In this document: positions 5,494 to 31,486 of the stretch, piece by piece
Layout: every line of letters starts with the position of its first letter
Numbering within the stretch: the first letter of the stretch is position 1
Source of the DNA: a virus
Taxonomy: Duplodnaviria; Caudoviricetes
Virus record (IMG/VR): IMGVR_UViG_2895847146_000001
Span: 53,959-117,958 of that record
Length of the DNA: 64,000 nt
Direction: 5' to 3' (one strand)
The notes under the pieces: generated by a model
What the model saw: only the letters and a program-made list of their open reading frames with translations
Database searches by the model: none
Told to the model about the DNA's origin: nothing
Position numbers and translations under genes: made by a program

Positions 5494-5706
5494 ATGATCC
5501 AGGATTCAGATTGTCAAGATTTTATAGAAATCCAAGCCCGTTTTACTGTCCATATCGGCCAAGGTGGGGTAAGAGAGGAAACGGTAACGGTAGAAGTGCC
5601 TGCTCACTGGGACCAACTCAGTGACAATCAGAAGCGAGAATACCTCTTTGATGATTGGAAGGAGTGGGCTTATCAGTACGTCGATGGTAGCTACGACCCC
5701 ATCTAA
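5494..5706 (+). CDS. small acidic phage protein
   Basis: ORF with typical EYLFDDWKEWAYQYVD ending. Confidence 0.7.
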   Translation: MIQDSDCQDFIEIQARFTVHIGQGGVREETVTVEVPAHWDQLSDNQKREYLFDDWKEWAYQYVDGSYDPI

Positions 5707-5781
5707 GTCAACCCATCCAGCGAGGCCGCAGCCAAGTTGCATTTGCCCCTGTAAGCTCTTACTGCTTGAAAACGAAGAACA

Positions 5782-6081
5782 ATGAAGACGCCCCTATTCC
5801 ACGTCGGTCAGCAAATAGTCTGCACCAACGACGACTTTACCCTGCTGCTGGTCCAGAACCCGAACATCGAGGCGCCCAAGCGCGGCCCGATCTACACTGT
5901 GCGCCAGAACTGCATTTTCCCGCACGCCGTCGGGCTGTTGCTGGAGGAGATTCGCAATGAGCACGTAGCGCCGGGCTTTCCAGAGGCAAATTTCAACCAA
6001 GACCGGTTCGCCCCCGTGCCGCCCGTCGAGGAAATCAGCCTGGCAGCCGTTTTTGAGGAATCACTTTCTACACCTGCATAA
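5782..6081 (+). CDS. hypothetical protein (SH3-like FHVGQQIVC...YTVR...RFAP family)
   Basis: Motif pattern common in phage ORFs. Confidence 0.7.
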   Translation: MKTPLFHVGQQIVCTNDDFTLLLVQNPNIEAPKRGPIYTVRQNCIFPHAVGLLLEEIRNEHVAPGFPEANFNQDRFAPVPPVEEISLAAVFEESLSTPA

Positions 6082-6084
6082 GAA

Positions 6085-6288
6085 ATGGAAATCACCCTAT
6101 TATTCCTCGGCACCAACGACACCCAGCCCTCGCAGGCTTACGCGCCCTGGGCGGCCAGACTTATGCGACGCCGCACCGGAACACCTCGATTAGCCTACCC
6201 CGTAAGCACAAAAACGCGGCGCCGTGCCCAGGCCAGCGCCCGCCATTTCAAACAATGGATATTGAAAACACATGGACGCACCCAATAA
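6085..6288 (+). CDS. small basic hypothetical protein
   Basis: In-operon ORF. Confidence 0.45.
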   Translation: MEITLLFLGTNDTQPSQAYAPWAARLMRRRTGTPRLAYPVSTKTRRRAQASARHFKQWILKTHGRTQ

Positions 6289-6562
6289 CAAAATAAACAG
6301 AGGGCAGCGACTCCGGGAGTTGGGGTTTCGGCCGACGGGCTTCACAATGTTCGATTCTTGGGGCGAGCCCACCGACTACAATAGTTATTCCTGTTCCGTA
6401 TGGGAAAACGAGGCTGGCCACAGGGCGACGGCATATGAAGACCCTCAGCAAACCGTAGTATTCGACCCACCCCTGACCATCGACCACGGCCTGCACACCC
6501 CGAATATTAACAGGCATGCGCTGGCCCTCTTCACAGGGGTGTTGATTGCCAAGAGCCGCTAA
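6272..6562 (+). CDS. hypothetical protein
   Basis: In-operon ORF ending just before a terminator. Confidence 0.6.
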   Translation: MDAPNNKINRGQRLRELGFRPTGFTMFDSWGEPTDYNSYSCSVWENEAGHRATAYEDPQQTVVFDPPLTIDHGLHTPNINRHALALFTGVLIAKSR

Positions 6563-6566
6563 AGAG

Positions 6567-6595
6567 AAAAGCCCGCCTAACCAGCGGGCTTTTTT
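6567..6595 (+). terminator. intrinsic terminator
   Basis: AAAAGCCCGC-loop-GCGGGCTTTTTT. Confidence 0.85.
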
Positions 6596-6643
6596 ATTGC
6601 GCAAACCAACGTATCTTCCGGGCAAGCTATACCTGTACGCCCG

Positions 6644-7096
6644 ATGAAATCCCTCTTCTACACCCTCTTGTTGACCGCAGCCCTGGCCGGCTGCAGTAAA
6701 GAGTCGAACCCTGGGCCAGCCACCCCTCCACCCCCGCCAGCGACTGATAATACAGTCTACCTGCGCGTGACGGCTGACAACGTGCAGCCTGGCCAGAAGG
6801 CATTTGTGCAGCAAGTAGGCACGCTGAAGGATGCGGTGACGCTTACCCTGCCAGCTGGAGCCTCCTCGCCGGCCAAGCAGATAGCCAACGAGAAGTCCGT
6901 GTTTGTCAAGGGCCAGCAAGTCCAGTTTGGCGTCTACACCAGCACGCAGCCGACCAAAGGCACCGGCACCATCCTGGCCGAGCTGGTACGCGGCACTACC
7001 GTTCTTTCCAGCGTTACCTGGGACAACGCCAGCCCACCCGCCTGGGACCAGCCGAGCCAGAGCGCGGTAGTCAATAAGACCATTACCCTGCCCTAA
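6644..7096 (+). CDS. lipoprotein (moron-like, independently transcribed)
   Basis: Signal peptide with LAGC lipobox and Pro-rich linker; flanked by two terminators. Confidence 0.85.
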   Translation: MKSLFYTLLLTAALAGCSKESNPGPATPPPPPATDNTVYLRVTADNVQPGQKAFVQQVGTLKDAVTLTLPAGASSPAKQIANEKSVFVKGQQVQFGVYTSTQPTKGTGTILAELVRGTTVLSSVTWDNASPPAWDQPSQSAVVNKTITLP

Positions 7097-7099
7097 TAC

Positions 7100-7136
7100 A
7101 AAAAGCCCCGCCGTACTGCTACGGCGGGGCTTTTTT
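7100..7136. terminator. bidirectional intrinsic terminator at the early/late convergence
   Basis: AAAAAGCCCCGCCGTA-CTGC-TACGGCGGGGCTTTTTT. Confidence 0.9.
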
Positions 7137-7139
7137 AGC

Positions 7140-7290
7140 AAAGCTGCATTTCTTCCACTTGGCTCAGCCAAGGACACTTTGCGTTCCGCTTCACAGCGGG
7201 AACCTGCTCCACACATTCCAACAGCAGGTAATTTCACGAGGGCACTGCTTTCGCATTCAGTTTGCAACCTGATTTTCAGCCCTTGTATTG
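7140..7290 (-). ncRNA. putative structured ncRNA (multi-hairpin)
   Basis: No credible ORF; stems AGGGC/GCCCT, TGC-GAAA-GCA, ACCTGCT/AGCAGGT, CCGCT-GTGA-AGCGG, CTTGG/CCAAG. Confidence 0.45.
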
Positions 7291-7437
7291 TAGAGAGGGC
7301 GGGATTGGATACCCGCAAGCCACGTTCTGCAAGCCAACTTTCATTCCTGGCCTCCCGGCCCTTGCAGAGCACATGCTTGGCCGAAGCCGCACAACAAGGA
7401 GGATTTTACATATCCAGGGGCAATTGCCAACCTCTCT
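7291..7437 (-). ncRNA. tRNA-like RNA with very long variable arm
   Basis: Acceptor AGAGAGG/CCTCTCT+A; T-arm GCGGG-TATCCAAT-CCCGC; anticodon-like arm GGAT-ATGTAAA-ATCC. Confidence 0.6.
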
Positions 7438-7469
7438 ATTCTGTCAGCCGCTCGATTGGCGGCTGTATT

Positions 7470-9260: not shown

Positions 9261-10823
9261 TTACGCGGCGCTTCGATTGAAGGTGTTGTTCTTGTCGAGC
9301 GGAATCAGGGGCACGTCCACAATGTGCGGGAAGCCCTTCACGGCCCTAATCAGCAGGGAGCCAGCGAGTCCGGTAAATCCAAGGTCTTCCGAGTACTGGT
9401 TGCCCGTGAAGAAGGCCGGGCTGCGCACCCAGCGTTTGCGGTTGCCGTCGAGGAATACGCCCCGGGTGTGCTTGTCGGCCGTCAGCAGCAGGGTAAACAC
9501 GCCCCGCGTCTGGAAATCAGCTATCAGGTCGGTGGCCTTCTTCTCGTTGCTCACGTCGCCGGTGTAGCCGTGCTTGAGAATATAATTGATGCCGTCGATT
9601 TCCCGGGTAACCAGGGCTGGGTTAAACTCAATGTCCAGCAACTTGCCATAATTGAGCTTGAGGAAGTAAAATACGGCCTGCGCGACTTGGGCGGCCGTGT
9701 CCTCCTTGGCGCTGGAGGTAATGCGGTCATGGTTGCCGCCAACGGACAGGATGCCCCGCAGGTTCACGATGCGGTCAATGAAGTACACGAAGAACTCGTA
9801 GGCGTGGGCAATGGCGTCTGCTCCGAACAGATCCGCCCCCTTCCAGCTGTTGGGGTGGTTCAGGCCCGTGAGCGTTTCGATATAGTCCCCCAGACCCAGC
9901 AGCCAGACTTGGCCGGCGCCGACGGCGTTTACTTCGGCAATCAGCTGGTCGGCGTAGTCATACATTTGCTCGCGGTCATAGTCGAACGAGCGAATCATGT
10001 TCTTGATTTTGGCACCGGCGTGGGTGTCCGCCAGGGTGAAGGCCAGCACGTTCGGGGCCGACGGGCCAACAGGGGCCCGGAGCAGATAGCGCACCTTGGC
10101 CTCGGGGAAACGGTCTGCCAGCTCCACCAGCACCGAGTCGTTCAGGAACTTGGTTTGCTCGGCCTCCTGAATGACCTTCTCGTACTTCTTGTGCGTAGCG
10201 GCGTGGTGCTGCTGCTCGATAATCAGGCCCGTGTCCTTGTAGCGCACCGCAATCTTGGCCGCCACCATCTTCTCGCGCAGCTCGGGGGCGGTGGTGTCCC
10301 AGGTGTGGGGAGAAAACACGTTGCTGAGCTTGTTGAGCATCAGGCGGGCCTTCATGCTGTTCCACTGCCAAGTCGAGAGGCGGAACTTGTTGATAACCTG
10401 CGTCTGACTCAGGTTCAGGCCGTGCTTGCTGTAATTGAAAAACAGCTCGTCCACCTGCTCCACCGACAACCGGAAATGACGGGCCGGGCGGCCGTGGGCT
10501 CCCTTCACTTCCCATTCGTAGTGTTCATCGACCACGCGCCAGGGCTCCTCGTCCTCGGCGTCGATGCTAACAGATGGCTCCTCGTCCTCATTGCGAGCTT
10601 CCCGTTCGTGAGGAGGAATAACGTGGCCGTCCAGGGTGACGGCGCCCTGCAGGATGCGCTGGAAGGCTCGGCGCACCGCGTCCCACTGGGTAGGCTCAAC
10701 GACATAGGCCGGATCTTCGACCATTGCCTTTACGAGCGCATCCGAGGTGGTGAGGTGGGAATGGGTTTTGTAAAATTGACGGGCAATAGCTGCCGCCGAA
10801 CCGGGTTGTGGGGTTCCAGCCAT
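9261..10823 (-). CDS. calcineurin-like metallophosphoesterase with N-terminal extension
   Basis: ADTH, GLGDYIE, GGNHD, KHG and ADKH motifs. Confidence 0.85.
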   Translation of the reverse strand: MAGTPQPGSAAAIARQFYKTHSHLTTSDALVKAMVEDPAYVVEPTQWDAVRRAFQRILQGAVTLDGHVIPPHEREARNEDEEPSVSIDAEDEEPWRVVDEHYEWEVKGAHGRPARHFRLSVEQVDELFFNYSKHGLNLSQTQVINKFRLSTWQWNSMKARLMLNKLSNVFSPHTWDTTAPELREKMVAAKIAVRYKDTGLIIEQQHHAATHKKYEKVIQEAEQTKFLNDSVLVELADRFPEAKVRYLLRAPVGPSAPNVLAFTLADTHAGAKIKNMIRSFDYDREQMYDYADQLIAEVNAVGAGQVWLLGLGDYIETLTGLNHPNSWKGADLFGADAIAHAYEFFVYFIDRIVNLRGILSVGGNHDRITSSAKEDTAAQVAQAVFYFLKLNYGKLLDIEFNPALVTREIDGINYILKHGYTGDVSNEKKATDLIADFQTRGVFTLLLTADKHTRGVFLDGNRKRWVRSPAFFTGNQYSEDLGFTGLAGSLLIRAVKGFPHIVDVPLIPLDKNNTFNRSAA

Positions 10824-13096: not shown

Positions 13097-14824
13097 TTAG
13101 GCCGTTGCCAGTGAGCCAACATTGGCCGCGCCGGGGCCGGCCACCAGGCTTGCCAGCGTTCCGCCGTAGCCGACAAAGCGGATGGTGGTAATCGAGCTGT
13201 TGGCCTCCAGGTACACGGGCTTAATGCCGCCGCTCAGGCTGGTGCCGGTCAGGTCGAGGGTGGTAATGGCCCCGTCGTTCATCTTGAGCAGGTATTCCAG
13301 GTTCTGGGCCGTGGTGCCCGCCAGGTCCAGCGTACCGATGGTGGCTTGGTCCATCTTTATCAGGCAGGAGCCCGAGGCCGTAGCCGCCACGCGGGTGTGC
13401 GTCAGGTTCTTGATCTCAATGGTGGCGGCCGTCAGGCGCGGGTGCGACACCAGCGTATCAAGCTGCACGATTGGGGCCGTGAACGTAGAGCCCGCCGCCG
13501 TGTCCTGCTCCACCCCGTCGTTGTAGGTAATGGTAGTGTGGCTGTAGCCCATCACCCGCCACGAGCACCAGTTAGCCGTGTAGTCGGTGCGCGTCACGCG
13601 CAGGAAGTTCACGACATCCGTGTTGCAGGCCACGAAGGCGGTGCCCTTCTTGTTCAGATCCGGGTCGGACTCATCGGGCAGACAGTCCACATGAATATCC
13701 GTGAAGTTGATGTTCTTAGCGTACGTCTGCCCGGGCTGGGCCTGTGGGCTGGTCCCGGCCGAGATATAGAAGTTGTCGAAGGTCAGCCAGTAGTCGTGCG
13801 TGTAGCCGAACAGGTCCGAGATAAAGACATTCTCGATGAGCGAGGCGGCGGGCAGGATGCGCACAAACCAGCGGCCCCCGATGGCCTCAATCCGGCGCAC
13901 GGTGATGTTCTTCTGCCCGCTGTAAGTCTTCATGGCGTCGTACACGTTCGGCGCGTTCGGCGTATTGAGCAGGTTGTTCAGTGAGAAACTGTAGGGGTCG
14001 GAACTGCCGTTAATGGCAATCTTGTCATCGTGGGTGCCTTCTACCGAGCAGTCCTCAATGACCATTCCGTCAATGGCCCCGTTCAGGTGGAAGCCATCGG
14101 TGTAGATTTGGCCTTCCTGGTTCTTGACGTGGCAGTTACTGACCCGGCCATTCTTGATGTTTTGCAGGTGTACGCTTTGCACCTTGGCCCGCACGAGCTG
14201 CATGTTTTCCAGAATCAGCCCGTCCACGCCCCGGAAATTGAGCACCCCAGGCAAGCCCTCGGTAGCCGTCCAGGTCTGGTCAAAGCCCTTGGCGTTCCAA
14301 CTGCCGCCGCTGATGCGGATGTTCTGGTCGATAATGGCGGCCGGGTTCCAGGTCAGGTTTTTGTTGCGGAAAATATCCTTGTTGGTGCCGCTACGCAGCA
14401 TGGCCCCCACCGTCAGGTCGTCGGCCGTGGCAAGAATGGTCGTGTCGCTGTTGAGCAACAGGGTCCGCACGCTGGCTGCCTTGTTCCACGTCAGCGTTTT
14501 GGGGCCGTTCTGATCGAGAAACGCCTGTACGGCCGCTGTGGAATCGTGAACGGGAATGTTGTCTTCCTGCGCCTGGCTATAGTACTGGTACGTAAAGGGG
14601 CGCATTTCTAACTGGCCGGGGTCCATCTCCGGCTCCGGGTCGATACTGCTCAGCGTGGCCGTGGTACCGCCTCCTCCGGCCGGCCGCTGGGGCACGACAA
14701 TGCTAATGGTGTTGGTCCCGTCAACAGCCCGCAGGGTAATGCGGCGCTTGTCCGTGTTGGGCGAGGTGTAGCGGCTTTTCCCATCCGACCCGGGAAAGGG
14801 CGCTGGTTCAAACGTTAAAGGCAT
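13097..14824 (-). CDS. tail spike/depolymerase, pectin-lyase-like right-handed beta-helix
   Basis: DSTAAVQAFLD, TDGFHL and THDDKIAIN motifs reminiscent of GH28-type beta-helices. Confidence 0.8.
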   Translation of the reverse strand: MPLTFEPAPFPGSDGKSRYTSPNTDKRRITLRAVDGTNTISIVVPQRPAGGGGTTATLSSIDPEPEMDPGQLEMRPFTYQYYSQAQEDNIPVHDSTAAVQAFLDQNGPKTLTWNKAASVRTLLLNSDTTILATADDLTVGAMLRSGTNKDIFRNKNLTWNPAAIIDQNIRISGGSWNAKGFDQTWTATEGLPGVLNFRGVDGLILENMQLVRAKVQSVHLQNIKNGRVSNCHVKNQEGQIYTDGFHLNGAIDGMVIEDCSVEGTHDDKIAINGSSDPYSFSLNNLLNTPNAPNVYDAMKTYSGQKNITVRRIEAIGGRWFVRILPAASLIENVFISDLFGYTHDYWLTFDNFYISAGTSPQAQPGQTYAKNINFTDIHVDCLPDESDPDLNKKGTAFVACNTDVVNFLRVTRTDYTANWCSWRVMGYSHTTITYNDGVEQDTAAGSTFTAPIVQLDTLVSHPRLTAATIEIKNLTHTRVAATASGSCLIKMDQATIGTLDLAGTTAQNLEYLLKMNDGAITTLDLTGTSLSGGIKPVYLEANSSITTIRFVGYGGTLASLVAGPGAANVGSLATA

Positions 14825-14835
14825 AATAGGGAGAA

Positions 14836-15711
14836 TTAGCGACCCAGGGCCGTATCCAGGTTTTGAACCAGGGTGGTAAAGTTTTGAATCTCAGCAGCAG
14901 ACAGGGCTTGGCTAAAGAAATAAGCGCCTGTGAACACCTTATCAGAAAACTGATTATTGTTGCGGCTGCCCAACTTGAAGTCAGAGCCAGTAAAGGTGAT
15001 TCCCGGCAGAGCACTTACTTGACCGCCTCCTAGCAACGACCCGTTCTTGTATATATCATGGCGAGTCTCAGGCCGGTTGCCGACTGTCAATCCTGCCGAC
15101 GAAGCCACGGCTTGGCCTTGCGTAGCTGGTCCCGCCTCAAAGAAGGCGCTTCCATTAAAAAATGCTTGCAATTCCACCAGTTGACCATTACTAAGCACGG
15201 CCGCTATTTCCGAGGCACTTTCTGAAATAGCTGAGGGCGTGTTGAAGGCCAGGGCGAAGTTGTCGGGGTCCAGCTCGGATACGTTCAGGTGGGTCTCCGC
15301 GTACTGCCCGTTACCGCTTTGGTCAAAGCTCATCACACTGTTGCCATGCACGGCCCCGTTGGGGAACGTGAGGCGGTACGCCGCATCCGTGTTGAGCGGA
15401 TTGACCATGTTCAGGCTGTGCGACAAGGCCGTGCTGCCGCCAATGGGATAGGCCGCCTTCAGCTTCGGGTAGATACCCGCTGATTTGAGCCCTTTAAAAA
15501 AGGCATCCCACGCATGGCCGCCCGTATCGGCGAAACCCGCATTGGTTAGGTAGGTTTGTGCGTCCGGGTCGATGCTGGGGTTGCCGCCGCCGCCCGTGGC
15601 GGGCACGGCGGCCGTGGCAACGGCAGTGCCCCCCACGGGGCGTACTCGCAACGTGCCCGCCGTGGTGCCGGGTACCGTGAAAGGAATAGAGGGAGCGGGA
15701 GTAAAGGCCAT
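14836..15711 (-). CDS. tail appendage protein with putative lectin/LamG-like domain
   Basis: DPDAQTYLTNAG...LKAAYPIGG...QNFTTLVQNLDTALGR pattern typical of Bacteroidota phage fibres. Confidence 0.7.
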   Translation of the reverse strand: MAFTPAPSIPFTVPGTTAGTLRVRPVGGTAVATAAVPATGGGGNPSIDPDAQTYLTNAGFADTGGHAWDAFFKGLKSAGIYPKLKAAYPIGGSTALSHSLNMVNPLNTDAAYRLTFPNGAVHGNSVMSFDQSGNGQYAETHLNVSELDPDNFALAFNTPSAISESASEIAAVLSNGQLVELQAFFNGSAFFEAGPATQGQAVASSAGLTVGNRPETRHDIYKNGSLLGGGQVSALPGITFTGSDFKLGSRNNNQFSDKVFTGAYFFSQALSAAEIQNFTTLVQNLDTALGR

Positions 15712-17081
15712 TATGCTTCGGGCGAGTCGTTGATTTCAAGAGTGGTGCCGGGCTGCGGCGTCCAGGAAACTTCCCCGGTGGCCTCGTTCACCGTCAGGTC
15801 GGTGGGCAAGGCCGGCTCCTGTGCGGGAGCTTCGATGAACTCATATTCGTAGTTCACCCCCTGGATTGGGGTCCAGCTTGCCAGCCGGGCGGCGCTAACA
15901 GTCAGGTCGTTCGGGGCCACTAGGTTGTTGCCGGTGGTTACCTGTGCCGGGGCGGTGTAGTCGGACGGCGAGGCGCCCAGGGCGCGGATGCGCAGGAAGT
16001 AGAGGGTCGAGGCTGTCAGACCTGTAATGGAAAGCTGCGTGGCGTTGGCTGCCGTCGATACTTTCGTGGAGGGGCTGAAGTTGGCGCTTAGGGCGTACTC
16101 AACCTCGTAGCCGGTATTGCCTGTCGAGGTGTTATTCCAACTCGTGCCAATGCTGGACGAGGACTGTGGCTCGGCCGTAAAGCCGGTGGGCGCTACCAGT
16201 TGCGGAACCCCGGCCAAGTTCACGGTGCGAATCACCGACCATTCCGAGTTCGTGTAGTTCGGCAACTGCCCCTTGGCGCGGACGCGCACGTAGTAAGTCA
16301 GGCCGCCGGTCAGGCCGGTAATCGAGCCGCCGCCAAAGTCGGGCAGCACCTGCACGGTCTTGGTCGCAGCCGTTTCGGGAAAACTGGTGCTGGTGGAGGC
16401 TTGCAGCTCGTAGCCGTTGTTGTTGAGTACCGAATCCCAGGCGGCGGCAATGGTGCCCGCGCCGTTTTCGTTGGCCGAAAAGCCGCTTGGCGGGTCAAGC
16501 TGCACACCCTGCACGGTGAAGACAGCGCTACTCGTGGCGGGCCCGCCCGGCGTATATACCTTCACCGTGCCCGTGGTAGCAATAGCCGAAACGGTTGCCG
16601 TAAGGGAGGTTGCCGTGTTGTTAGTAATCTGGCCGACGGCCCCGTTGATTGCCACGGCCAGCGCGTTGCTCAGGTTGGTGCCCGTAATGGTGAAGGTCGA
16701 GCCGATCGAGCCGGTTGTAGGCGAGAACGAGGTAATGGTAGGGGCGGGCGTGGTACCTGCTCCCTCCACTATCTCCTTGATCTTGATGGACGTGGGCAGT
16801 TCCCAGGATACCACGGGGTTGCCCCCGGTGTAGACCTCGTAGGTTTCACCGTTCACGAGCTGCCCCAACACCCCGCCTGGGGTTTTGCCGCCATACTTAC
16901 CGGTGTACACCGTCTTGGCGTTGATGCCCGTGGTGGCGTTGCGGGGGCCAATCAACACGATTTTATCCACGTTGACCACCCACGGGGCAGCGGTAATAGC
17001 ACCGGAGCCGGAAGGCAAGGTTAAAGTTGTGCCCGTCCAGCGGACGAGCACAATCTTGGTGTTAATGATGGTTGAAGGCAT
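15711..17081 (-). CDS. IPT/TIG + FN3 domain virion adaptor/decoration protein
   Basis: PTITSFSPTTGSIGSTFTITGTNL (IPT) and two full FN3 repeats (TGLTxxxTYYVRVRA). Confidence 0.85.
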   Translation of the reverse strand: MPSTIINTKIVLVRWTGTTLTLPSGSGAITAAPWVVNVDKIVLIGPRNATTGINAKTVYTGKYGGKTPGGVLGQLVNGETYEVYTGGNPVVSWELPTSIKIKEIVEGAGTTPAPTITSFSPTTGSIGSTFTITGTNLSNALAVAINGAVGQITNNTATSLTATVSAIATTGTVKVYTPGGPATSSAVFTVQGVQLDPPSGFSANENGAGTIAAAWDSVLNNNGYELQASTSTSFPETAATKTVQVLPDFGGGSITGLTGGLTYYVRVRAKGQLPNYTNSEWSVIRTVNLAGVPQLVAPTGFTAEPQSSSSIGTSWNNTSTGNTGYEVEYALSANFSPSTKVSTAANATQLSITGLTASTLYFLRIRALGASPSDYTAPAQVTTGNNLVAPNDLTVSAARLASWTPIQGVNYEYEFIEAPAQEPALPTDLTVNEATGEVSWTPQPGTTLEINDSPEA

Positions 17082-17083
17082 CG

Positions 17084-18829
17084 TTAGTAGGAAAGCGTGA
17101 AATCAGCAGCCGGATTCGGGAAAGCAAACTCGTGGCGCACCCCGGCGCCGTCGTACCACGCCCCGCTGTCGCCCTTGTAGTCACCCGACCAGTTGACGTA
17201 GGAGGTCACCCCGCCGTCGGTGATGGTGAGCACCTGCGGGTCAGCGGTGGTGGACTTCTGGTTGAATTCGAGCTTGCGGGGGCCTTCGGTGGCCAGTACC
17301 ATGCCATCGAGGCCGGTACCGCCGTTGTTGTCAGCGGCCAGGAAGTGGGAATAAGTGGGCAGCGGGGCCGTGGCCGTTACCAGAATCGTAGTGCCGAAGG
17401 CGGCGCCCTCAGCCGTGCCGTCGTAGGCTTTGGCCGTCAGCGTGTGGTTGCCCGCTGCCAGCGCCGAGGTGGTCGTAGAACCCGACGCGCCCGTAATGGT
17501 GCCGACCAGCGCGGCGCCGTCGTAAATGCGGATACTGGCTACCGTGCCGTCGCTGTCCGTGGCCGTGGCCTGCACCGTTACCGTGCCGCCAGCGGCAATG
17601 CTGGTGGCGGTGGTGGCTGAGAAGGCGGTAACCACGGGAGCCAGGTTGGCGGCCGTCACGGTAATGTTCTTGCCTCCAGCAGTAATGGTTTCGCCGTTGT
17701 TGTCGAGGGCCCGGGCCGTGAAGACTTTGGTGCCGGCCGTCGCGGGCGTGTACACCAACTCGTAGAGGCCGCTGGCCTCCTTGACCGTCTTCAGGCCGAG
17801 AGAGTTGCCGTCAATCAGGAATTCTACCGAGTCCACGCCCGACGGGGCCGTAGCGGCTACCTTGAGCACCACCGACTGGCCAGCCACCACCGAGGAGGCA
17901 GACAACGAGGTGGTGATGGTACTCGTGGCGGGCGCGGCGGTAACAAAAATGTTGACCACGGACGAAATGGTGGTGTTGCCGTCCAAGTCGAGCACCTTGG
18001 CCGTCAGGGCGTGGTTGCCCGGGGTGGTTGGCTTCCAGTCAAAGGCATAGGGCGCGGTTAGTACCGGGTCATTCAGCGGCGTAGCGCCGTCGAAGAACGT
18101 TACCTCGTCCACGCCGTAGGTGCCAGCGGTTACTACGGCGGTCAGCGGCAGCGTGCCGCCCAGGGCCAGCGTAGTTACCGGCACGTTCAGCGTAACCAGC
18201 GTCGGCACCTGGTTAGCAGCCACCACACTAATGTTCTTGGGAGCCGAAACCGAGGCCGCACCCTGGCTATCGGTGGCTTTGGCCGTGAAGGTAAAGCCGC
18301 CAACAGCCGTCGGCTTGTACTCAATGGCATACGGCGGAGACGTGGCGCGGCCAATTTGCAGTTGGCCCTGGTAGAACTCCACCACGATAATAGAGCCGTC
18401 GGGGTCTGAGGCCGTGGCGTTCAGGGTGACTTTCTGGCCCAGGGTAATAGCGCCCACGCTTACGTCGAGCGTAACGACGGGCAGCTTGTTGTCGGTTTCG
18501 TCGGTGGTGTAGACCAGCACCCACACGCCCGCCTGGTACTGGTACCAATCGAGCTTGTTGCCCCCGCGCTTGTGCAACCAGAGCTGGTTTTCTACGCCGG
18601 CCGTGGCGGGAAACGCATTGGAGGGCGCCGTGATTTCGAAGCGGGCGCGCGGGGCCAGCACCTTGCGCTGGTCGGCCTGGGTCACCTCAAAGGTTTTGCC
18701 TGGATAGGTGGGGTGCGTGGGCGGGGCCGTGAATAGCCCTACCCAATCATCACCGGGAAGTACCCCCTCGGGCAGAAAGCCAACCTCAAGCGGGGTTTGG
18801 CCTTCTAAGGCGGTTGGATCAAGCAGCAT
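17084..18829 (-). CDS. multi Ig-like (Big) domain virion protein
   Basis: Repeated ATASDPDGSI..VEFY..G...APY..WT...G.H.LTAKA.D units. Confidence 0.85.
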   Translation of the reverse strand: MLLDPTALEGQTPLEVGFLPEGVLPGDDWVGLFTAPPTHPTYPGKTFEVTQADQRKVLAPRARFEITAPSNAFPATAGVENQLWLHKRGGNKLDWYQYQAGVWVLVYTTDETDNKLPVVTLDVSVGAITLGQKVTLNATASDPDGSIIVVEFYQGQLQIGRATSPPYAIEYKPTAVGGFTFTAKATDSQGAASVSAPKNISVVAANQVPTLVTLNVPVTTLALGGTLPLTAVVTAGTYGVDEVTFFDGATPLNDPVLTAPYAFDWKPTTPGNHALTAKVLDLDGNTTISSVVNIFVTAAPATSTITTSLSASSVVAGQSVVLKVAATAPSGVDSVEFLIDGNSLGLKTVKEASGLYELVYTPATAGTKVFTARALDNNGETITAGGKNITVTAANLAPVVTAFSATTATSIAAGGTVTVQATATDSDGTVASIRIYDGAALVGTITGASGSTTTSALAAGNHTLTAKAYDGTAEGAAFGTTILVTATAPLPTYSHFLAADNNGGTGLDGMVLATEGPRKLEFNQKSTTADPQVLTITDGGVTSYVNWSGDYKGDSGAWYDGAGVRHEFAFPNPAADFTLSY

Positions 18830-20553: not shown

Positions 20554-23500
20554 CTACAGCATTTCCCGGAATACAATCCGGTCCGGGTCTTTCATCTTGG
20601 CGCCGACCACGGCGTACTTGGCCCGCTTGGTGGCGGCCTTGCTGATAGCGGCCATCCGTTTGGCGGCTTGGTCGTGGTTCAGCGAGCGGAAGTTCTCAAT
20701 ATCCTGTAACAGAATCTGCTTCAGCACTTTGCCGCGCAGTTCCAGGAACCTGTAGAACGTTTCATCACTCATGGGCCCCTCCTTCCACTGGCCGGCCACC
20801 CCGGCAGAAGCGGGTAGCTGCCCTTCGGCCTGCTGGAAGGTGAAGGCCACCGTTGTGCGCTGGTTGGGCACGGGAATGCCCACCCCTTTTTCCGTCAACA
20901 CGTCCCAGATGCGTTGCGTGGCCGCGTCGCGGTGCGTGGGCCGGCCGCTCGTCAAGCGGTCTGATTGCACTTTCATGGGCTCGCCCAGCGCGTCGAGGGC
21001 CGGGCGCATGCCCGAGCGGAACACGGGCAGGTCTTGCTGCACCACTTCCCAGGCCCGCTTGGCTTCTACTTTGTCCGTGTCGGTGAAGTCCTGCAGGTCG
21101 CGGCTGAACTGGCGTAGCAGGCCCGAGGCGGGAACGTAGCCCGTGACCGAGTAGCCCAGGGTGCGCTCCAGGTAGGTCTGCATCTTTTTCAGGCCGCTGG
21201 TTTCTCCGCCGTAGCCGCCCGAGCTGGTCAGCGCGTCCAGGGCTTCGGAAATGTTCTTGGTGGCCGTCGTTTCCACCACCATGCCCATTGTGCGGAAAAC
21301 CAGCAGGCTGGCCCCGCTCACGTAGGAGTCGTCGGTTTCGGGGTTGGCCTTCTCGTACAGCTCGCGGTCTTTCATGGCACCGACCACGCCGAGCACGAAG
21401 AACAGCGGGCTTTCCTTGTAGCTGACCCACTTGCTGCCGAGCTTGACCGCGTAGGGCCGCCAGCCGTTTTGCAGCAGCTGGTTGCGCTGGGCCGAGTCGC
21501 GCGGGCCGGGGCCGCTGATTTCCAGGTTATCGTCGTCGTCCTCGCGGTGCGTGGCGGCGTAGAGGCCCGCCAATAAGGCGGTGCCCATCGTGGCCTTGGC
21601 CAGTACTTTGGCCCGCTCCTCGGCCGTGTAGGGCCGGTATTGGGAACCCTGACGCTCGAAGCCGATACCACCCTTGGCTGCCCGCACGAAGCCGTGCAGG
21701 GTGTAGTCGAGGTAGGCATTGGCCACGTTGGTAATGACGCGGGAGAAAGGCACCACCCACTTGCCCAGCGGACCAACCCGCTCTACTACGTTGCTTACGC
21801 CGGTAAAGACCACGCCCAGCGTGCCTTCCATTTCGCCGTTGAACACGGCCCGCGTGGCGTACTGGCGGGTATCTTCCTGCATCGGCATGGGGCGGCTCTG
21901 CTCCATTAGTTCCCACACGCGCAATACCGCGTCTCGCCCCGTGCGGCCTTCGGCCGTGGCCGTAGCCACCGCGTCGGCGTGGCGCTGGGCTGAGTTGCCC
22001 AGCTTTTCGTGCACGGCCTCCCAGGTGGCGCGGGAAGGGTCTTGGCGGCCTTCCTTGGTGGCTTCTACGGCCGCCAGCTCCCAGGCCCGCATTTCGCGCA
22101 GGCCCGACTGGTAGAACACGTCCGAGGCTTTCAGCAGGCGGGGCACAAACTTGAGCACCCCGGCCAAGCGGTTGCCGCCCAGGGCCGCCACTTCCAGCGT
22201 GTTCGGCACGTCGTACTTGCCCAGCTGGCCCGAAGGTTCGTAGCCGGTCTGCAGTACTTCGGTAGCCAGCCGGGCGCCGGCCTTCAAGCCGGCTGCCAGC
22301 CCGCGCACCGGGGCCGTGACCTTGCCGCCCTGGCGGAGTACGTTACCGGTGGACAACAGGGCCTCCATGAAGGTCTGGTGGGTGTTGGCCGTGAAGTTGA
22401 CCAGGTGCGTAGCGTAGGAGCTGAGCACGTTGGCGTACCACATGGCCTGTGAGAGGTCCAGGAAGCTCACGCCCTTAATGCCCTGCAGAAACAGGTTCAG
22501 CTCGCGCACGGCCTTCTCCTTGTCCCGGCCGACGGGCGCCTTCTCTACGGCCGCGCCCAGCGTGCGCAGGCGGGCCACGTCCTGCACCGTCAAGTCGGGT
22601 AGGTCAGTGGCTTCCGCAATCAGGCCAATGACGCGACTGTCGGACAGGGGCGAAAGATTGAGCAGTTCCAGGGTTTTGTCCAGGGCGGTCTTGCCCTTTT
22701 TGCCCAGGCCCACCCGCACCCGTAGCGAGTACATGCGGTTGAGGATGCTTTCGCGCTTGGCGGTGAGCTGGCGCTGAAACTCCCTCTCCAGGGTGGCGGC
22801 GTACTCGCGGGCGGTGGCCGGGTCCAGGCCCGCGTCGGCCACGAGCTTTTGCACCAGCGTGCGGCCTGTATCTTCCTGCTCGCTGACGTGTAGGCGCACG
22901 ATGGCATCGAGCTTCAGGCTCATTTCCCGAAGGCCCTCCCCCACTACGGCTGCCGCCTGCTTGTTGCTGTTAGGCTGACCGATTATCTGGTCTGCATAGC
23001 CGCGCAGCAGTTCCAGTAAGTCCGATTTCTGGTCGTCCGTCAGGGCCAGCTTCTGGATCTGGGCTTCTACTTCCTGCTTGCTGCGCTCCCACACATCGGC
23101 GTATTCAGCCTTGTTACGCAAGGCAGCTACCAGCGCATCCCGGTTGCTGATTTTCTTCTTGCCGGGGGCGGGTGGCAACGATTCGCGGACTTTGCCCATC
23201 AAGGTGGACAGAAGTTGTTTCACCGGGTCGAACTGGCCCGGGGCGGTGGGGGTGACTTCCGCCAGGATACGGGCGGCCAGCAGACGGGCCTGCTCCTGCG
23301 CTATCTGGTCGTCAATGTCCTGGGCAGAGTTCAAGCCCGTGGCATCGCCGCCGTCGGCCAGATACTGCTGCGTGGCTTGCTCGTAGGCGTCGCGCAGGTA
23401 GGGCTTGGCCTTGGCGCCGAAGTCGCGCACGAGTTTGGCGGCCACGTCAGCAAACTTGCGGGTGCCGGCTTCCAAGTGAAAAACGGCACCGACAATCAGC

Positions 23501-26500
23501 TGAGGCGGAATAGGTGTGGAGAAGGCCATTTTCTTGAATGCCTTCTTCAGCTCCTCGTATTTCTCGCGGGTGACCAGCTTGTTCTTCGAGCCGTAGGAAG
23601 CGGGCTCGGGCTGCGCGGCGGCTGGCGCCACCTTGGCCTTGGCCGCCTCTACGGCTTTGCTTTTCAGCGTAGCCTCCAGCACCTCGCCCTGCACCTGGCG
23701 GGCTTGTTTGGCCACGGCGCGGCCCTTGGTGCGGGTCTTTTCCTTGACCTCCTTCTGCTGGCGGGCTACTTCCTTGCGGGCCTGGTACACGGCCTGGCGT
23801 GGAGAGTAGCGGGCAATGGCGCGGTTGGCGCTGATAGCGCGGCCATACTCAGTGTTGGCCAGGGCCTTCTCCGTGTCGATAGTCAGCGCCTGCTGCATGT
23901 ATTGGGCGGCCAACTCGTCGTTGCCGGCTAGGTCAGCCTCGATGCCCAGGCGGTCCAGTTCGTCGGCCACCTTGTCGCGCACGAGCAGGCGCACATCGTC
24001 GGGCAGCTGCTGGTCCACGTCCAGGGCAATATCGTAGGCTTGGGCAATGGTTTTGCCCAGAATGGCCGCGTCCGCCTGGGCCTCCGATTCACTCAGGGGC
24101 TTGGGCGTGTAGTTGAGCACTTCCGATTCCAGGCGGGCTTTGCGCACCTCGGAAAGGGACGGGTTTCCCAGCTGGTTGACAACGGTAGCCCGCTCACCGG
24201 GCTTGGCCTGGGTGCGGCTCGTCGGCGCAGAAGCGGCCGGGGCCTGCTTGGGGCGAAACACACCCTCCTGCTTCAGCACTTGCCGCACCAGCGGGCGCAG
24301 CTGCTCGTCGGTGGCGTCGTCCTCGGTCAGGCCAGCGGCCCGGAGCTTGGCAATGGTCAGCTTGGTATTGACCACGCCCAGCTTGATAAGGGCGCGGACC
24401 ATCTTCTGAATGGCAGCGGATTCCTCGGCCGAGAAGGACGGAATACCCAGCAGCGAGGATTGGGCCACGCGGGAGCCTTTCTTGCGGGCAGCCTTGAACT
24501 CGGCCAGCGCGTCGGAAAGCTCGGCTTTGGCCGCTACGTTCTGCTCGCGCAGGCTGGGCGTTACTTTTTGGGCTGGCCCTGCGCTTCCCGTGCCAGGGCT
24601 TGCAGGGCGCGGAACGCTGCCCGTTTCTGTTCCGGTGTTTTCTCCTGAAACGCTTCCTGCTTCTGCTCTTTGGTCAGAATTACTGCTTTGCTGAATTGGT
24701 CTGTTTGCTCGCTCATCGACAAGGGCTTTTAGTTTGGTGGCGGTAGTTTCATCTACGCCGAATACGAAAGAATAGCCAGCCGCATCTGTGTAGGTGTCGG
24801 CCATACGCTGGTAATCTACGATTCCGTCGTTGGAAACGAAATCATTAATGGCCTGCTGCACGTTGGCGTCCTCGGCAATCAAGGCGTCAATGTCGGCGTC
24901 GCTGAGCGGCACTTCCTCGCGGCTGCGAATGGAAGCCGTGTCCGGGTTGCCCAAAAAGTCCTCGGCCGATACCCGCTCCTTCTTGGTCGCTAGGCCGGTG
25001 CCGGTGCTGACCTCGGCATAGCCGGTTTCGACTATCTCCTGAATCTTATTCAGTAGCGCGTCGGCCCGCAGGGTGTTGCGGCCTTCCTGAATGTCCTTGG
25101 CGGCGGCGGCAGCGTCGCGGGGGTTCAGGCGTTTGCCGTTGACCTCAATGCCCAGGGCCACGAAGTCCCCTCCCCCACGGCCTGCCAGCGTCAGGGCCGC
25201 GTCGCGCACGGCGGGCGCACGGTCACGGGCCGGTACATGGCCCTCAACGGGGCTGGTGCCGGTAACCGTGTTGGTACGGGTCACGCGCTTGCCACCACGG
25301 GTGATTTTCACCGACAAGTCATTGCCCACCTCAAAGTCGAGGCCAGCGGCTTTCGCCAGCTTAGCAAGTTCAGCGCGGGCAGCTTGGCCTTTCGCCCCCT
25401 TCTTCTCACGGGTAGAAAGCTCCTTGTAGCCCGCTAGGTCGTCCAGCACACCGTTGACGCGCTCCTGCTCGGGCGTGAGGGCGGCGGCTACAGGCTGGGC
25501 CGAGGCTTCTTGCGGGGTGGCGGGTTCTTCGGTTGGGATGGTCTGCTCATCGGCTACAGGGGCAACCGGTGAGGGGCCAGCAGGAACTTCGGCCTGGGTG
25601 ACAGCGCCTGCGTCAGCATTGCTTTCGGGCACATCGCCAGTGCCAGCCGCTGCCTGCTGGCTATCGTATAGCCCCTCCAAGTCGGCACTAGCAGCTTCGG
25701 GTGTAGCTGAGTTAGGGCCTCCTGTACTTTGCACTGCTGGAAGAACAGTCTCTCCGCTTGCTGTTGATTGAGCATCTATTTGGCTAGTTGGTTGTTCTGC
25801 AATATACTCCACCGGCACGGCGGTATCCACGGGTTGGCCGGAATTATCTTCGCCTACTACACGAGCCATCTTGCCATCGGGCGAGAGGGCTACTACCTGG
25901 GCGTTGGGGGCCAATACCTGCCCATCCGGGCGTACAATCTGCACGGGGGCTGGGTAGGCTTGCTGGGCAGCGGCTTGTTCTTCGGGCGTCACGTCCTGCG
26001 GCACCTCGAACTGCGGAGCGGTGGCCTGCGCATCCTGCACGGGCGCGTTCTGTGGGCCACCCGCGAAGCTACCAGCCGCGCCGCCGAGCAACGCCCCGGC
26101 AACGGCCTGTTCCAGTGGGTTTTTGACCAGCGCATCCATTGCGGAAATGCCGTAGCCCTTCTCCCCTTCCGGACGCAGGGCGTCGGCTAGGAGCTGAGCG
26201 CCGCCCTCGGCTTCGCCTTGCAGAAACTCGGTAGCGCCTTCGCCCACGGCCCCGGTAGCGGCCCGTCCGGCAAACTTAGTCACGACGGCGGGCATAACTT
26301 TGCCCACGGCCTGGGCGAGTGCTGATTGCGAGATCTTGCCTTTGCCGTAGCGCAGCGCCTCTTGCAGCAGCTTGCTTTGGAGCACCTGCGTCGCGGCTTT
26401 ATTCTTGGTAATGAAGCCCAGGCCCACTTCTTCCAACATGCCGACCACCGGGGCCAGCAACACGGCTGTCGTCGCCGCTTCGCCCTCGGAGATACCGGCC

Positions 26501-29334: not shown

Positions 29335-29340
29335 AGAGGC

Positions 29341-29391
29341 GAAAGATACGAAATTCTATCTTGAAAACCGGGATATAACTTCGTATCTTTC
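29341..29391. promoter_or_regulatory. symmetric promoter/operator
   Basis: Operator CTATCTTG-AAAAC-CGGGATAT flanked by inverted GAAAGATACGAA / TTCGTATCTTTC. Confidence 0.65.
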
Positions 29392-29402
29392 CCTTGTCGG
29401 CC

Positions 29403-29870
29403 TCACTTTAAATTTTTCAACATTCCCTCCGCCCAATTCTCATTTGTCATCTCGTATTCAACCCACGCCCCGTCAAATATCCGCCGAATATGGGTATGTG
29501 TTTTGAGGTCAATCCAGTAGTTGCCTTCTCTCTTTGTGAATTGGTCGGCGTAAGCCATTGCGTCACACCTTGATGCTTCGTCGGGTGCGTAGAACCGCAA
29601 GTATGAGGCTGTTAGTCTTCCTTTTTCAAATCCAAAAGCCCGCAAAACCCCCTCCCTTTCGGCAGAAAACAGTATCACCTTGCGAGTTCCTTCCTGCCCA
29701 GCAAGCATGGTCGTGTCTTTCTGCCACCCATGCTGCCCCAACATAATATCCTCTACGGCATATTCTGTTATATTCCAGTCAGTGGGCGCCAGGGTTTTGG
29801 GCACTGCAACCTGTGCATAGGATTGACAACTTAATATCATCAACGACAATAGGAACACAAGATTCTTCAT
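29403..29870 (-). CDS. secreted/lipoprotein-like moron protein
   Basis: Signal peptide MKNLVFLLSLMILSC; lower GC than flanks. Confidence 0.7.
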   Translation of the reverse strand: MKNLVFLLSLMILSCQSYAQVAVPKTLAPTDWNITEYAVEDIMLGQHGWQKDTTMLAGQEGTRKVILFSAEREGVLRAFGFEKGRLTASYLRFYAPDEASRCDAMAYADQFTKREGNYWIDLKTHTHIRRIFDGAWVEYEMTNENWAEGMLKNLK

Positions 29871-29908
29871 GCCCCTATAATCGGAATAATTTCTGAAATA
29901 TCAACCGG

Positions 29909-30079: not shown

Positions 30080-30208
30080 CGGTGTATTGTTTACGCTAAG
30101 GAACACATACTACATAACAACTACAAAGGTTATATAGAAAATAAATAACAACAGGGTTGTTTTGTATATTTTTTGTAGTACATTTACCATGTATTCAACT
30201 TAATAATT

Positions 30209-30532: not shown

Positions 30533-30534
30533 GT

Positions 30535-31485: not shown

Positions 31486-31486
31486 G

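What the first reader, a model, noticed from the sequence alone, without database searches (positions are those of the whole stretch)
14666..15923. Split FN3 domains: an adaptor ends in two half-domains and the next two tail genes begin with the apparent missing halves
Seen: after two complete FN3 repeats, the 15711-17081 protein ends with two truncated units that contain only the first strands (LVAPNDLTVSAARLASWTPIQGVNYEYEF and LPTDLTVNEATGEVSWTPQPGTTLEI). The two following ORFs start with short segments resembling FN3 C-terminal halves, each with the F-strand xRVRA-like motif and then a Gly linker: MAFTPAPSIPFTVPGTTAGTLRVRPVGGTAVATAAVPATGGGG and MPLTFEPAPFPGSDGKSRYTSPNTDKRRITLRAVDGTNTISIVVPQRPAGGGG. 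Their payloads differ (lectin-like versus beta-helix depolymerase). Inference: fold complementation in trans docks two interchangeable receptor-binding modules on one adaptor, a natural plug-and-socket tail system. For the first pair, a recoding fusion at the TAATG overlap (15711) is an alternative.
Basis: partly seen in the sequence, partly recalled or inferred. Interest (0 to 1): 0.8.

Follow-up and report, generated by a model that had tools for sequence, protein, structure and literature searches.

The report
Two-part connector joining phage tail proteins
A dormant virus in a Hymenobacter-like bacterium appears to fasten its host-recognition proteins to the tail through a small connector whose two pieces lie on neighbouring genes, a new variant of a known plug-in design for swapping such proteins.

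Summary
The quoted sequences are there. A 456-aa tail protein with no payload (15711-17081, minus strand) ends in two similar ~30-aa units, U1 and U2 (0 of 2000 shuffles reach their score). The next two genes, a ConA-like lectin and a GH28-like depolymerase, start with homologous ~45-aa tags followed by GGGG (BLASTP E=2e-5).

The pairing recurs. I found five loci in 4 of 274 Hymenobacteraceae genomes, on at least three unrelated tail backbones. In each, a U-like unit lies at or near the C-terminus of one protein. The gene directly downstream starts with a tag on varied payloads. U:tag counts are 2:2, 2:2, 1:1, 1:1 and 2:1. This supports a plug-and-socket connector.

That the two pieces co-fold into one FN3-like domain stays inferred. 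The U family aligns to FN3 strands A-C only modestly (hhalign E=4e-4 to 6.5e-3). It aligns about as well to the He_PIG core, and the tags do not match FN3 significantly.

A recoding fusion at TAATG is unlikely. Docking of receptor-binding proteins by N-terminal peptides, and beta-strand complementation in trans in phage tails, are both already known. I rate this a new variant of a known kind, interest about 0.6.

The parts
15711..17081 (-). 456-aa payload-less tail adaptor: N-terminal domain (res 1-110), TIG, two FN3-type repeats, then U1-U2
   Evidence: ORF. Pfam TIG and fn3. The only real relatives share res 1-~280 and then carry their own payloads in cis: P0002 (752 aa, 56% id), an 829-aa and a 1029-aa ORF.
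16752..17081 (-). N-terminal domain of the adaptor, presumed to attach it to the virion
   Evidence: Conserved in P0002, L020 and L021. Weakly similar to res 48-80 of the 415-aa lectin protein of G147:C2 (E=0.008). No Pfam hit.
15924..16502 (-). two complete FN3-type repeats (res 194-290 and 291-386)
   Evidence: Pfam fn3 16.8 bits (below cut-off) and 38.7 bits.
15834..15926 (-). U1, the first ~30-aa socket unit (res 386-416)
   Evidence: Repeat of U2. z=10.8-11.2 to the U of G069:C9 and z about 5 to U1' of G147:C41.
15714..15815 (-). U2, the second socket unit and C-terminus (res 423-456)
   Evidence: Repeat of U1. Matches the He_PIG core, 15.8 bits, 0 of 500 shuffles. With U1 it gives the Pfam He_PIG hit, profile 20-78 of 96 or 9-79 of 96 at 23 bits.
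14836..15711 (-). 291-aa receptor-binding protein: tag1 + GGGG + ConA-like lectin payload
   Evidence: The payload family starts at res ~45; the 20 homologues aligned out of 46 found lack this tag.
15580..15711 (-). tag1 (res 1-44), the plug
   Evidence: Homologous to tag2. 49% identical to the tag of G069:C9. In the AF2 model it is apart from the payload: pLDDT about 50, strands 9-11, 19-26 and 29-34, linker 36-43 below 50.
13097..14824 (-). 575-aa receptor-binding protein: tag2 + GGGG + GH28-like beta-helix depolymerase
   Evidence: Pfam Glyco_hydro_28 E=9e-7. 118 relatives, most aligned from res ~94 on; only P0108 aligns from res 11.
14663..14824 (-). tag2 (res 1-54), the plug
   Evidence: z=4.7 to the depolymerase tag of G147:C41 and z=3.2 to that of G147:C2.
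17084..18829 (-). 581-aa Big_7-repeat tail protein just upstream (context)
   Evidence: Pfam Big_7 E=3.5e-29. Its C-terminal ~100 aa resemble the small ORF that precedes the adaptor relative in L020 (tblastn E=1.2e-4).

Best explanation
The window holds a phage-like region, probably a prophage, inside a 5.9-Mb bacterial genome. Its 456-aa tail protein is an adaptor without a payload of its own. Its last 72 residues are two ~30-residue beta-rich socket units (U1, U2). The two receptor-binding proteins encoded directly downstream each begin with a ~45-residue plug (the tag), then a Gly linker and a payload: a ConA-like lectin and a GH28-like depolymerase.

Shown: the U units and the tags are two small sequence families. 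They recur together across gene boundaries in five loci, on unrelated tail backbones and with different payloads.

Inferred: each tag binds one U unit, U1 with the lectin's tag and U2 with the depolymerase's tag, following gene order and sequence type. This fastens both proteins to one adaptor.

Further inferred, and less certain: binding works by beta-sheet complementation. U would supply the first three strands and the tag the later strands of one composite Ig/FN3-like sandwich about 75 residues long, tethered flexibly on both sides.
For: 1) Repeats and homology inside the window: U1 against U2, 0 of 2000 shuffles; tag1 against tag2, E=2e-5.

2) Relatives of the adaptor carry payloads in cis after the same N-domain/TIG/FN3 stem. 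In G147:C2 an adaptor-like N-domain is fused in cis to the lectin payload. So the window's lectin has lost a covalent link and needs a non-covalent one.

3) G069:C9. A U model built from the window alone gave its best hit outside the window's own protein among 3454 sequences (18 bits, E=1.3e-4) on the last 32 residues of a 455-aa fibre, after a GGGGG/Pro-rich linker. Two nt later a 185-aa ORF starts with a tag 49% identical to tag1. That locus had been fetched through the tag model, not the U model.

4) G271:C5, another genus. Tag model E=2.6e-8 on a 534-aa ORF. The 479-aa fibre and a ~100-aa ORF directly upstream both end in U units.

5) G147:C41. An 88-aa ORF between a fibre gene and the lectin gene is colinear with U1-U2 (z=3.9, 18 of 5000 shuffles). 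It is followed by two tagged proteins; the lectin's tag is only marginal (z=2.6).

6) G147:C2. Residues 92-113 of the 415-aa protein match U2' of C41 (z=5.5, 1 of 5000), and one tagged depolymerase follows.

7) U:tag counts are 2:2, 2:2, 1:1, 1:1 and 2:1. Sequence types co-occur.

8) No ORF of 80 aa or more is shared by all five loci at E<1e-4. The G069:C9 and G271:C5 stretches share nothing but the first 33 residues of the tag.

9) A U of ~30 aa on a flexible linker is too short to fold alone. In the AF2 model of the lectin the tag forms low-confidence strands detached from the payload.

10) The U family aligns to FN3 positions 1-35, strands A-C (hhalign E=4e-4).
Against: No interaction was tested.

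The tags do not match FN3 significantly (hhalign E=0.28 and 0.39) and match He_PIG only marginally (E=0.049). Joining U and tag with X did not extend any He_PIG match. It raised the FN3 score only slightly, for tag1 and the relatives' pairs (p about 0.006-0.07; nothing for tag2).

The U family aligns as well to the He_PIG core (E=1.2e-3) as to FN3 (E=6.5e-3).

U1+U2 together give a Pfam He_PIG hit and might be one domain.

The U2-like units of G147 are not demonstrably homologous to the window's U2 (z<1.5).

G271:C5 has two U units and one tag.

A genome-wide search of G069, G271 and G147 with the window-only U model did not recover the units at E<=1. Their detection rests on locus-level searches and on models that include relatives.

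The sample is five loci in four genomes, and two of the prophages share a tail backbone.
Confidence: 0.55

Rival explanations
1. U1 and U2 fold together into one small Ig-like domain of the He_PIG kind, possibly lacking its last strand, at the tip of the adaptor. The tags dock on it as a whole, for instance by adding an edge strand, or dock elsewhere. There are then no two separate half-domains.
For: Pfam He_PIG on the last 72 aa: E=3.2e-5, 24.7 bits against a cut-off of 24, profile 20-78 of 96; 23 bits, profile 9-79, in the genome search. ESM Atlas feature neighbours are mostly He_PIG clusters (0.81-0.84, leads only). The Atlas's own model of res 384-456 aligns as one unit to domains of other models (TM 0.53-0.63). 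The tandem U1-U2 arrangement recurs in the 88-aa ORF of G147:C41.
Against: A single U occurs alone at the end of flexible linkers in G069:C9 and twice in G271:C5. One U2-like unit stands alone in G147:C2. The He_PIG signal comes almost wholly from U2's core motif. The match stops 17 profile positions short with only about 6 residues left. 0 of 273 other family genomes hold a relative of the 72-aa tail.
Confidence: 0.12
2. The tags are N-terminal anchors, or trimer-forming necks, that bind some other tail part or only each other. The U units are unrelated C-terminal ends, and U and tag travel together merely because they lie at the edges of one mobile gene cassette.
For: No binding was tested. 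Lectin and depolymerase move as a pair (3 of 3 loci that have the depolymerase). N-terminal peptides that bind branching domains of other proteins are the known rule (PMC6872550, passages read). The 2:1 count in G271:C5.
Against: No other protein of 80 aa or more is shared by all five loci. The U-bearing proteins are of at least four kinds and the payloads of four or five kinds, yet the U|tag junction is constant. Numbers and types match in 4 of 5 loci. The window's lectin has no other candidate attachment region.
Confidence: 0.2
3. Adaptor and lectin are one gene, read through by a programmed -1 frameshift at the TAATG, or split by mutation or sequencing error. The tag is then simply the rest of the last domain.
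For: The lectin frame is -1 relative to the adaptor with a one-base overlap. Relatives carry payloads in cis. tag1 against FN3-2 strands E-G has p about 0.02.
Against: No X_XXY_YYZ slippery site in the last 16 codons (read). tag2 has the same module but follows an 11-nt spacer after a complete gene. At the U-tag junctions of the other three loci where U ends its protein, U and tag are again on separate ORFs, with a 2-nt spacer, a 1-nt overlap, or a stop plus one codon. One-base stop/start overlaps are ordinary in compact phage operons (general knowledge).
Confidence: 0.03

Closest known systems
Adapter and anchor-branch receptor-binding systems of podophages: K1-5/SP6 adapter gp37 with two tailspikes; KP32 gp37/gp38; G7C gp66/gp63.1; CBA120 (PMC6872550 and PMC13352976, passages read)
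   Same: One virion-anchored protein offers docking sites. [quoted passage not shown] Payloads such as depolymerases are exchangeable. In K1-5, one payload-less adapter holds two different enzymes.
   Different: There the socket is a T4gp10-like (XD2/XD3) branching domain. Pfam and PHROGs found none in this adaptor. Here the sockets are ~30-residue terminal units on linkers, one per plug, the plugs are longer (~45 aa, beta-rich), and no sequence relation to those systems was seen. The hosts are Hymenobacteraceae prophages.
Podophage A1002 tail: split nozzle and rope-docked fibres (PMC13730344, passages read)
   Same: Missing beta-strands of truncated domains in one tail protein are supplied in trans by another ('structural complementation'). 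Each of 11 fibre dimers docks on repeated sites of a rope protein by forming an augmented beta-sheet.
   Different: Those are solved cryo-EM structures of other folds (beta-propeller, platform, fibre-dock). Here complementation is only inferred, the fold would be Ig/FN3-like, and I could not compare sequences.
Donor-strand complementation of chaperone-usher pilus subunits (recalled, not looked up here)
   Same: An incomplete Ig-like fold in one subunit is completed by the N-terminal extension of the next, giving very stable non-covalent links.
   Different: There only one strand (G) is donated. Here about half of the domain would come from each partner. The setting is a phage tail with no chaperone or usher.
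He_PIG (PF05345) and fn3 (PF00041) domains
   Same: The U units carry the motifs of these Ig-like families.
   Different: Neither U nor tag is a complete domain of either family. Canonical He_PIG copies in the genus span profile 1-96.

Membership tests
fn3 (PF00041), for a composite of U + tag | Match to the family profile above the curated threshold | tested here: not met
   No fn3 hit for U1, U2+tail, tag1, tag2 or the relatives' U units and tags, even at E<=10. Short pieces may be lost to the filters.
fn3 (PF00041), for a composite of U + tag | N-terminal half (strands A-B-C, with the B-strand Trp and C-strand Tyr) present in U | tested here: inconclusive
   hhalign of U against a local alignment of FN3 domains (23 distinct): E=4e-4 (5 units) and 6.5e-3 (8 units), columns 1-35. 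The fit to the He_PIG core is as good, E=1.2e-3. Single units: 0-7 of 500 shuffles reach the score for the relatives' U units, 29-39 of 500 for the window's.
fn3 (PF00041), for a composite of U + tag | C-terminal half (strands E-F-G, with the LxPxT...V.A motif) present in the tag | tested here: not met
   hhalign E=0.28 and 0.39. Single tags: 21 to 434 of 500 shuffles reach the score. The LPGT-type motif is visible by eye only.
fn3 (PF00041), for a composite of U + tag | Seven-strand beta-sandwich formed by the two chains together | not testable with these tools
He_PIG (PF05345), for the last 72 aa of the adaptor | Score at or above the curated cut-off (24 bits) | tested here: inconclusive
   24.7 bits when scanned as a 72-aa piece; 23.0 bits, marked not over the cut-off, in the genome search.
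He_PIG (PF05345), for the last 72 aa of the adaptor | Full-length domain (profile ~1-96), as in the genus's own copies | tested here: not met
   Profile 20-78 or 9-79 of 96, with about 6 residues left after the match. Most matches in the genus cover about 1-96. The alignment shows about 18-20 residues missing.
Anchor-branch / adapter RBP systems (T4gp10-like) | T4gp10-like (XD2/XD3) branching domain in the docking protein | tested here: not met
   Pfam and PHROGs scans of the 456-aa protein list only TIG, fn3-type and tail-protein FN3 hits. No fold-level test was possible: the AF2 single-sequence model had pLDDT 38.
Anchor-branch / adapter RBP systems (T4gp10-like) | Conserved N-terminal peptide on secondary RBPs with different payloads | tested here: met
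   The tag family sits on lectin, depolymerase, a 185-aa payload and a 534-aa payload.
Anchor-branch / adapter RBP systems (T4gp10-like) | Physical attachment of the secondary RBP to the primary protein | not testable with these tools
   Needs binding assays or virion analysis.

The most novel reading that the evidence does not exclude
A single Ig/FN3-like domain is naturally split between two genes. About 30 residues (strands A-C) sit at the C-terminus of a tail adaptor, fibre or mini-protein, and about 45 residues (the later strands) sit at the N-terminus of the next receptor-binding protein. The halves fold only together. They come in at least two cognate types, so one adaptor with two half-sockets holds two different enzymes. 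The connector has also moved between unrelated tail types, acting as a portable, non-covalent plug-and-socket for swapping host-range modules.
Probability: 0.35. Interest if true: 0.8.

Novelty: new variant of a known kind. Interest (0 to 1): 0.62.

Why it matters
Phages change host range by swapping receptor-binding proteins, and the docking rules decide which swaps work. The known rules come mostly from enterobacterial podophages and rest on T4gp10-like branching domains. This case points to a different, very compact connector in Bacteroidota prophages: about 30 plus 45 residues, with flexible tethers on both sides and apparently type-specific. It joins lectins, depolymerases and other payloads to adaptors, fibres or mini-proteins on unrelated tails. 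If the two pieces really co-fold, it would be a natural split Ig-like domain used as a connector. That would be directly testable with two short peptides and useful as a template for modular phage or protein engineering. If they do not, it is still a new family of docking peptides with a defined genomic signature.

Tried and rejected
There is no verdict either way.
- AF2 of the whole adaptor without an alignment: pLDDT 38, unusable.
- Viral contig scans with the adaptor, the 330-aa protein and the depolymerase: no relative.
- GenBank phage collection (tblastn) with the adaptor, the 185-aa and the 534-aa tagged proteins: no match.
- Word-indexed protein search with the depolymerase: only itself.
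- Genome and metagenome scans with the adaptor N-terminal alignment: only the loci already known plus one short contig.
- Pfam on isolated units and tags: nothing except He_PIG for the window's 72-aa tail.
- ESM Atlas on tag1: no usable hit.
- My own first impression that the N-termini of the G147 406-aa and 415-aa proteins hold units like the window's U1/U2: rejected by shuffling, p=0.16-0.9. The later assignments rest on other stretches.
- Search for a cis-fused 'Rosetta stone' (U followed by tag in one chain) among 512 ORFs from the 19 weak-hit loci listed in the script: none.
- X-joined read-through of U and tag against the He_PIG and FN3 models: no extension of He_PIG, only marginal FN3 gains.
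- Window-only U model searched genome-wide in G069, G271 and G147: the units were not recovered at E<=1.
- Tag model over 400 other genomes of the class: one hit, inside a 4245-aa ORF, not an N-terminal tag.
- Sequencing runs: none was listed, and no RNA holder was listed.
- Papers: searches for 'strand complementation' with phage/tail/receptor binding protein (0 papers) and 'donor strand' with phage/tailspike (1 unrelated paper) found no description of a split FN3 connector in phage receptor-binding proteins. These two searches, are the only basis for saying I found none in print.

Full report
CONTEXT. The window lies in contig C7 of a 5.9-Mb genome. It reads as a phage genome, probably a prophage. 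PHROGs finds terminase, portal, virion proteins, an exonuclease and a DnaB-like helicase. Relatives of one of its proteins lie in records titled Hymenobacter and Hymenobacteraceae.

The finding sits in a minus-strand tail and lysis block:
- a 2304-aa protein;
- a 330-aa protein;
- a 581-aa protein with four Big_7 repeats;
- the 456-aa protein in question (15711-17081);
- a 291-aa protein (14836-15711);
- a 575-aa protein (13097-14824);
- small proteins and an M15 peptidase.

THE OBSERVATION. The quoted residues are exactly there. The TAA of the 456-aa gene shares one base with the ATG of the next gene. The 456-aa protein has:
- an N-terminal domain with no Pfam match;
- a TIG domain;
- one FN3 above Pfam's cut-off (38.7 bits) and one below it (16.8 bits);
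- a 72-residue tail made of two units, U1 (res 386-416) and U2 (res 423-456).

U1 and U2 are true repeats: score 48, z=7.0, 0 of 2000 shuffles. The first ~45-54 residues of the two downstream proteins are homologous to each other (BLASTP E=2e-5), and each is followed by GGGG.

One is a GH28-type beta-helix (Pfam E=9e-7). The other is a ConA-like jelly roll: AF2 with 21 sequences gave pLDDT 79.9, and Foldseek matched lectin-like domains at E about 1e-8 with 10-16% identity.

WHAT THE UNITS LOOK LIKE. Taken alone, the window's units do not show that.
- The 72-aa tail hits Pfam He_PIG (E=3.2e-5, 24.7 bits, profile 20-78 of 96; 23 bits, profile 9-79).
- U2 matches the central He_PIG core (positions 44-71 of a model built from 27 He_PIG domains: 24 from the genus search and the genome's own three). 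It scores 15.8 bits and 0 of 500 shuffles reach that. It does not match a local FN3 model (30 of 500 shuffles).
- The match stops about 17 profile positions short of the end.

With relatives added, the U family aligns to FN3 columns 1-35, strands A-C. The hhalign E-value is 4e-4 for 5 units and 6.5e-3 for 8. It aligns equally well to the He_PIG core (E=1.2e-3). Both families are Ig-like, and the motifs overlap.

The tags do not match FN3 (E=0.28 and 0.39) and match He_PIG only marginally (E=0.049). The one pairwise signal is tag1 against strands E-G of the adaptor's own second FN3 (z=2.6, p about 0.02). The 'missing halves' therefore remain a pattern seen by eye: W/F and YEY in U, LPGT and alternating hydrophobics in the tag. 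It is not a statistical result.

RELATIVES OF THE ADAPTOR. Among 5.8 billion proteins only one real relative appeared, P0002 (752 aa, 56% identity over res 1-272). It continues into its own payload. Two further relatives in the family (829 aa and 1029 aa) do the same. The window's protein is the only one of these that stops after the stem. That fits an adaptor whose payloads come in trans.

THE DECISIVE COMPARATIVE RESULT. The depolymerase has two relatives that also share the tag, both in genome G147. A tag model then picked up weaker hits.

In a pool of 3454 sequences, a U model built from the window alone gave its best hit outside the window's own protein (18 bits, E=1.3e-4) on the last 32 residues of a 455-aa fibre in G069:C9. 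That is the ORF ending 2 nt before a weak tag hit. Read out, the fibre ends with a GGGGG/Pro-rich linker and then APTNLAVDPGRNASFTPAAGTTATDYEYQFS. The next ORF (185 aa) begins MAYQNLPSPSVVNGKISFVVPGTTGGVLSVRRRAVGTG, which is 49% identical to tag1.

An improved tag model found G271:C5, in another genus, at E=2.6e-8. There a 479-aa fibre and a ~100-aa ORF each end in a U unit. A 534-aa ORF with the tag follows with a one-base overlap.

In G147:C41 an 88-aa ORF lies between a fibre gene and the lectin gene. It is colinear with U1-U2 (z=3.9, 18 of 5000 shuffles). It is followed by a 406-aa lectin protein, whose N-terminus is marginally tag-like (z=2.6), and then by the tagged depolymerase.

In G147:C2 the lectin is fused in cis to an adaptor-like N-domain. 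Residues 92-113 of that protein match the second unit of the 88-aa ORF (z=5.5, 1 of 5000 shuffles). One tagged depolymerase follows.

U:tag counts in the five loci:
- window 2:2;
- G147:C41 2:2;
- G147:C2 1:1;
- G069:C9 1:1;
- G271:C5 2:1.

Sequence types go together. The YEYxF-type U units occur with the (S/P)F.VPGT-type tags. The G147 second-type units occur with the depolymerase-type tags.

Among ORFs of 80 aa or more, none is shared by all five loci at E<1e-4. The G069:C9 and G271:C5 stretches share only the first 33 residues of the tag. The window shares only lectin, depolymerase and endolysin with G147. G147:C41 and G271:C5 share a siphovirus-like backbone.

In the four genomes, the 8-unit U model finds only these eight units below E=1e-8, by construction, plus one weak hit at E=0.009.

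CAVEATS ON THAT RESULT.
- The window-only U model, run genome-wide through the search tool, did not recover the units in G069, G271 or G147 at E<=1.
- The second-type units of G147 are not demonstrably homologous to the window's U2 (z<1.5).
- The tag of the 406-aa protein is marginal.
- The set is small: tags are significant in 4 of 274 family genomes. In 400 other genomes of the class there was 1 hit, and it is not an N-terminal tag.
- My earlier guesses of U-like units in other stretches of the G147 proteins failed the shuffle test.

MECHANISM. Shown: two short families, one C-terminal and one N-terminal, recur across the same gene boundary on different carriers and payloads.

Inferred: they bind each other, one U per tag, and this fastens lectin and depolymerase to the adaptor. 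Three points favour this.
- A U of ~30 residues on a flexible linker cannot be a domain by itself.
- In the AF2 model of the lectin protein the tag is detached from the payload. It has low confidence and three short strands (9-11, 19-26, 29-34) before the Gly linker.
- U plus tag add up to about 75 residues, the size of an Ig-like domain.

A composite Ig/FN3-like sandwich formed by beta-strand complementation is therefore the most economical picture, but no tool result shows it. The stoichiometry is a guess: beta-helix depolymerases are usually trimers (general knowledge), so three adaptor copies may serve one trimer.

RIVALS.
(a) U1+U2 form one He_PIG-like domain. The Pfam hit and the Atlas leads favour this. 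The single-U loci speak against it.
(b) Tags bind something else, and U and tag are merely neighbours in a cassette. This is not excluded, but no other shared partner exists in the stretches compared.
(c) Recoding or a broken gene at TAATG. There is no slippery site. Tag2 follows a complete gene. At the U-tag junctions of the other three loci where U ends its protein, U and tag are also on separate ORFs with different junctions.

COMPARISON WITH WHAT IS KNOWN. The functional design is established for enterobacterial phages: an anchored protein or payload-less adapter offers docking sites, and secondary receptor-binding proteins carry conserved N-terminal peptides. There the socket is a T4gp10-like branching domain (PMC6872550 and PMC13352976, passages read). 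None was detected here.

Beta-strand complementation in trans, and docking of fibres by beta-sheet augmentation on repeated sites of a rope protein, were described for podophage A1002 (PMC13730344, passages read). Donor-strand complementation in pili is a further analogue, which I recall but did not look up.

My five literature searches turned up no split FN3 or Ig connector for receptor-binding proteins. Subscription journals are not covered.

VERDICT. I rate it a new variant of a known kind and set interest at 0.62. I give 0.55 to the whole reading (cognate docking, probably by co-folding) and about 0.35 to a true split Ig/FN3 domain.

Noticed in passing
L027 (G147:C41) 9796-10059, minus strand: An 88-aa ORF consisting almost only of two U-like units has 17 extra N-terminal residues and sits 5 nt after a 510-aa fibre gene. 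It may itself be plugged onto that fibre, which would make a chain of connectors.
   Followed up: partly
L102 (G271:C5) 5702-6010 and 6011-7450, minus strand: Two consecutive ORFs, a 479-aa fibre and a ~100-aa protein, end in closely similar U units (pairwise z about 25) but only one tagged gene follows. This could be a duplication, or two carriers for one enzyme.
   Followed up: partly
window 17084-18829; L020 9572-10171; L021 9299-9988; L028 5844-6626: In four loci the gene before the N-domain protein encodes a protein whose C-terminal ~100 aa look alike to the eye. Only the window's 581-aa protein against L020 was tested (tblastn E=1.2e-4). It may be the partner of the adaptor's N-terminal domain.
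   Followed up: partly
L020 (G069:C7) and L021 (G110:C473): The adaptor relatives with cis payloads (829 aa and 1029 aa) lie beside an integrase or transposase-like genes and without other tail genes nearby. They may be remnants, or reused outside phages.
   Followed up: no
window 20554-27468, minus strand: A 2304-aa protein upstream of the tail genes has only a weak PHROG hit to DarB-like antirestriction proteins (E=1.2e-6). It is probably a large internal or ejected virion protein.
   Followed up: no
window 28001-32000: G+C drops to 0.49-0.51 against about 0.6 elsewhere in the phage region, so this may be an inserted segment.
   Followed up: no
P0062: One homologue of the lectin-like payload (509 aa) holds two tandem copies of the whole payload domain.
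   Followed up: no
L102 4098-5702, minus strand: The 534-aa tagged protein has a GDS-type motif that suggests an SGNH-like esterase by eye, but Pfam gave no family at E<=0.01.
   Followed up: partly
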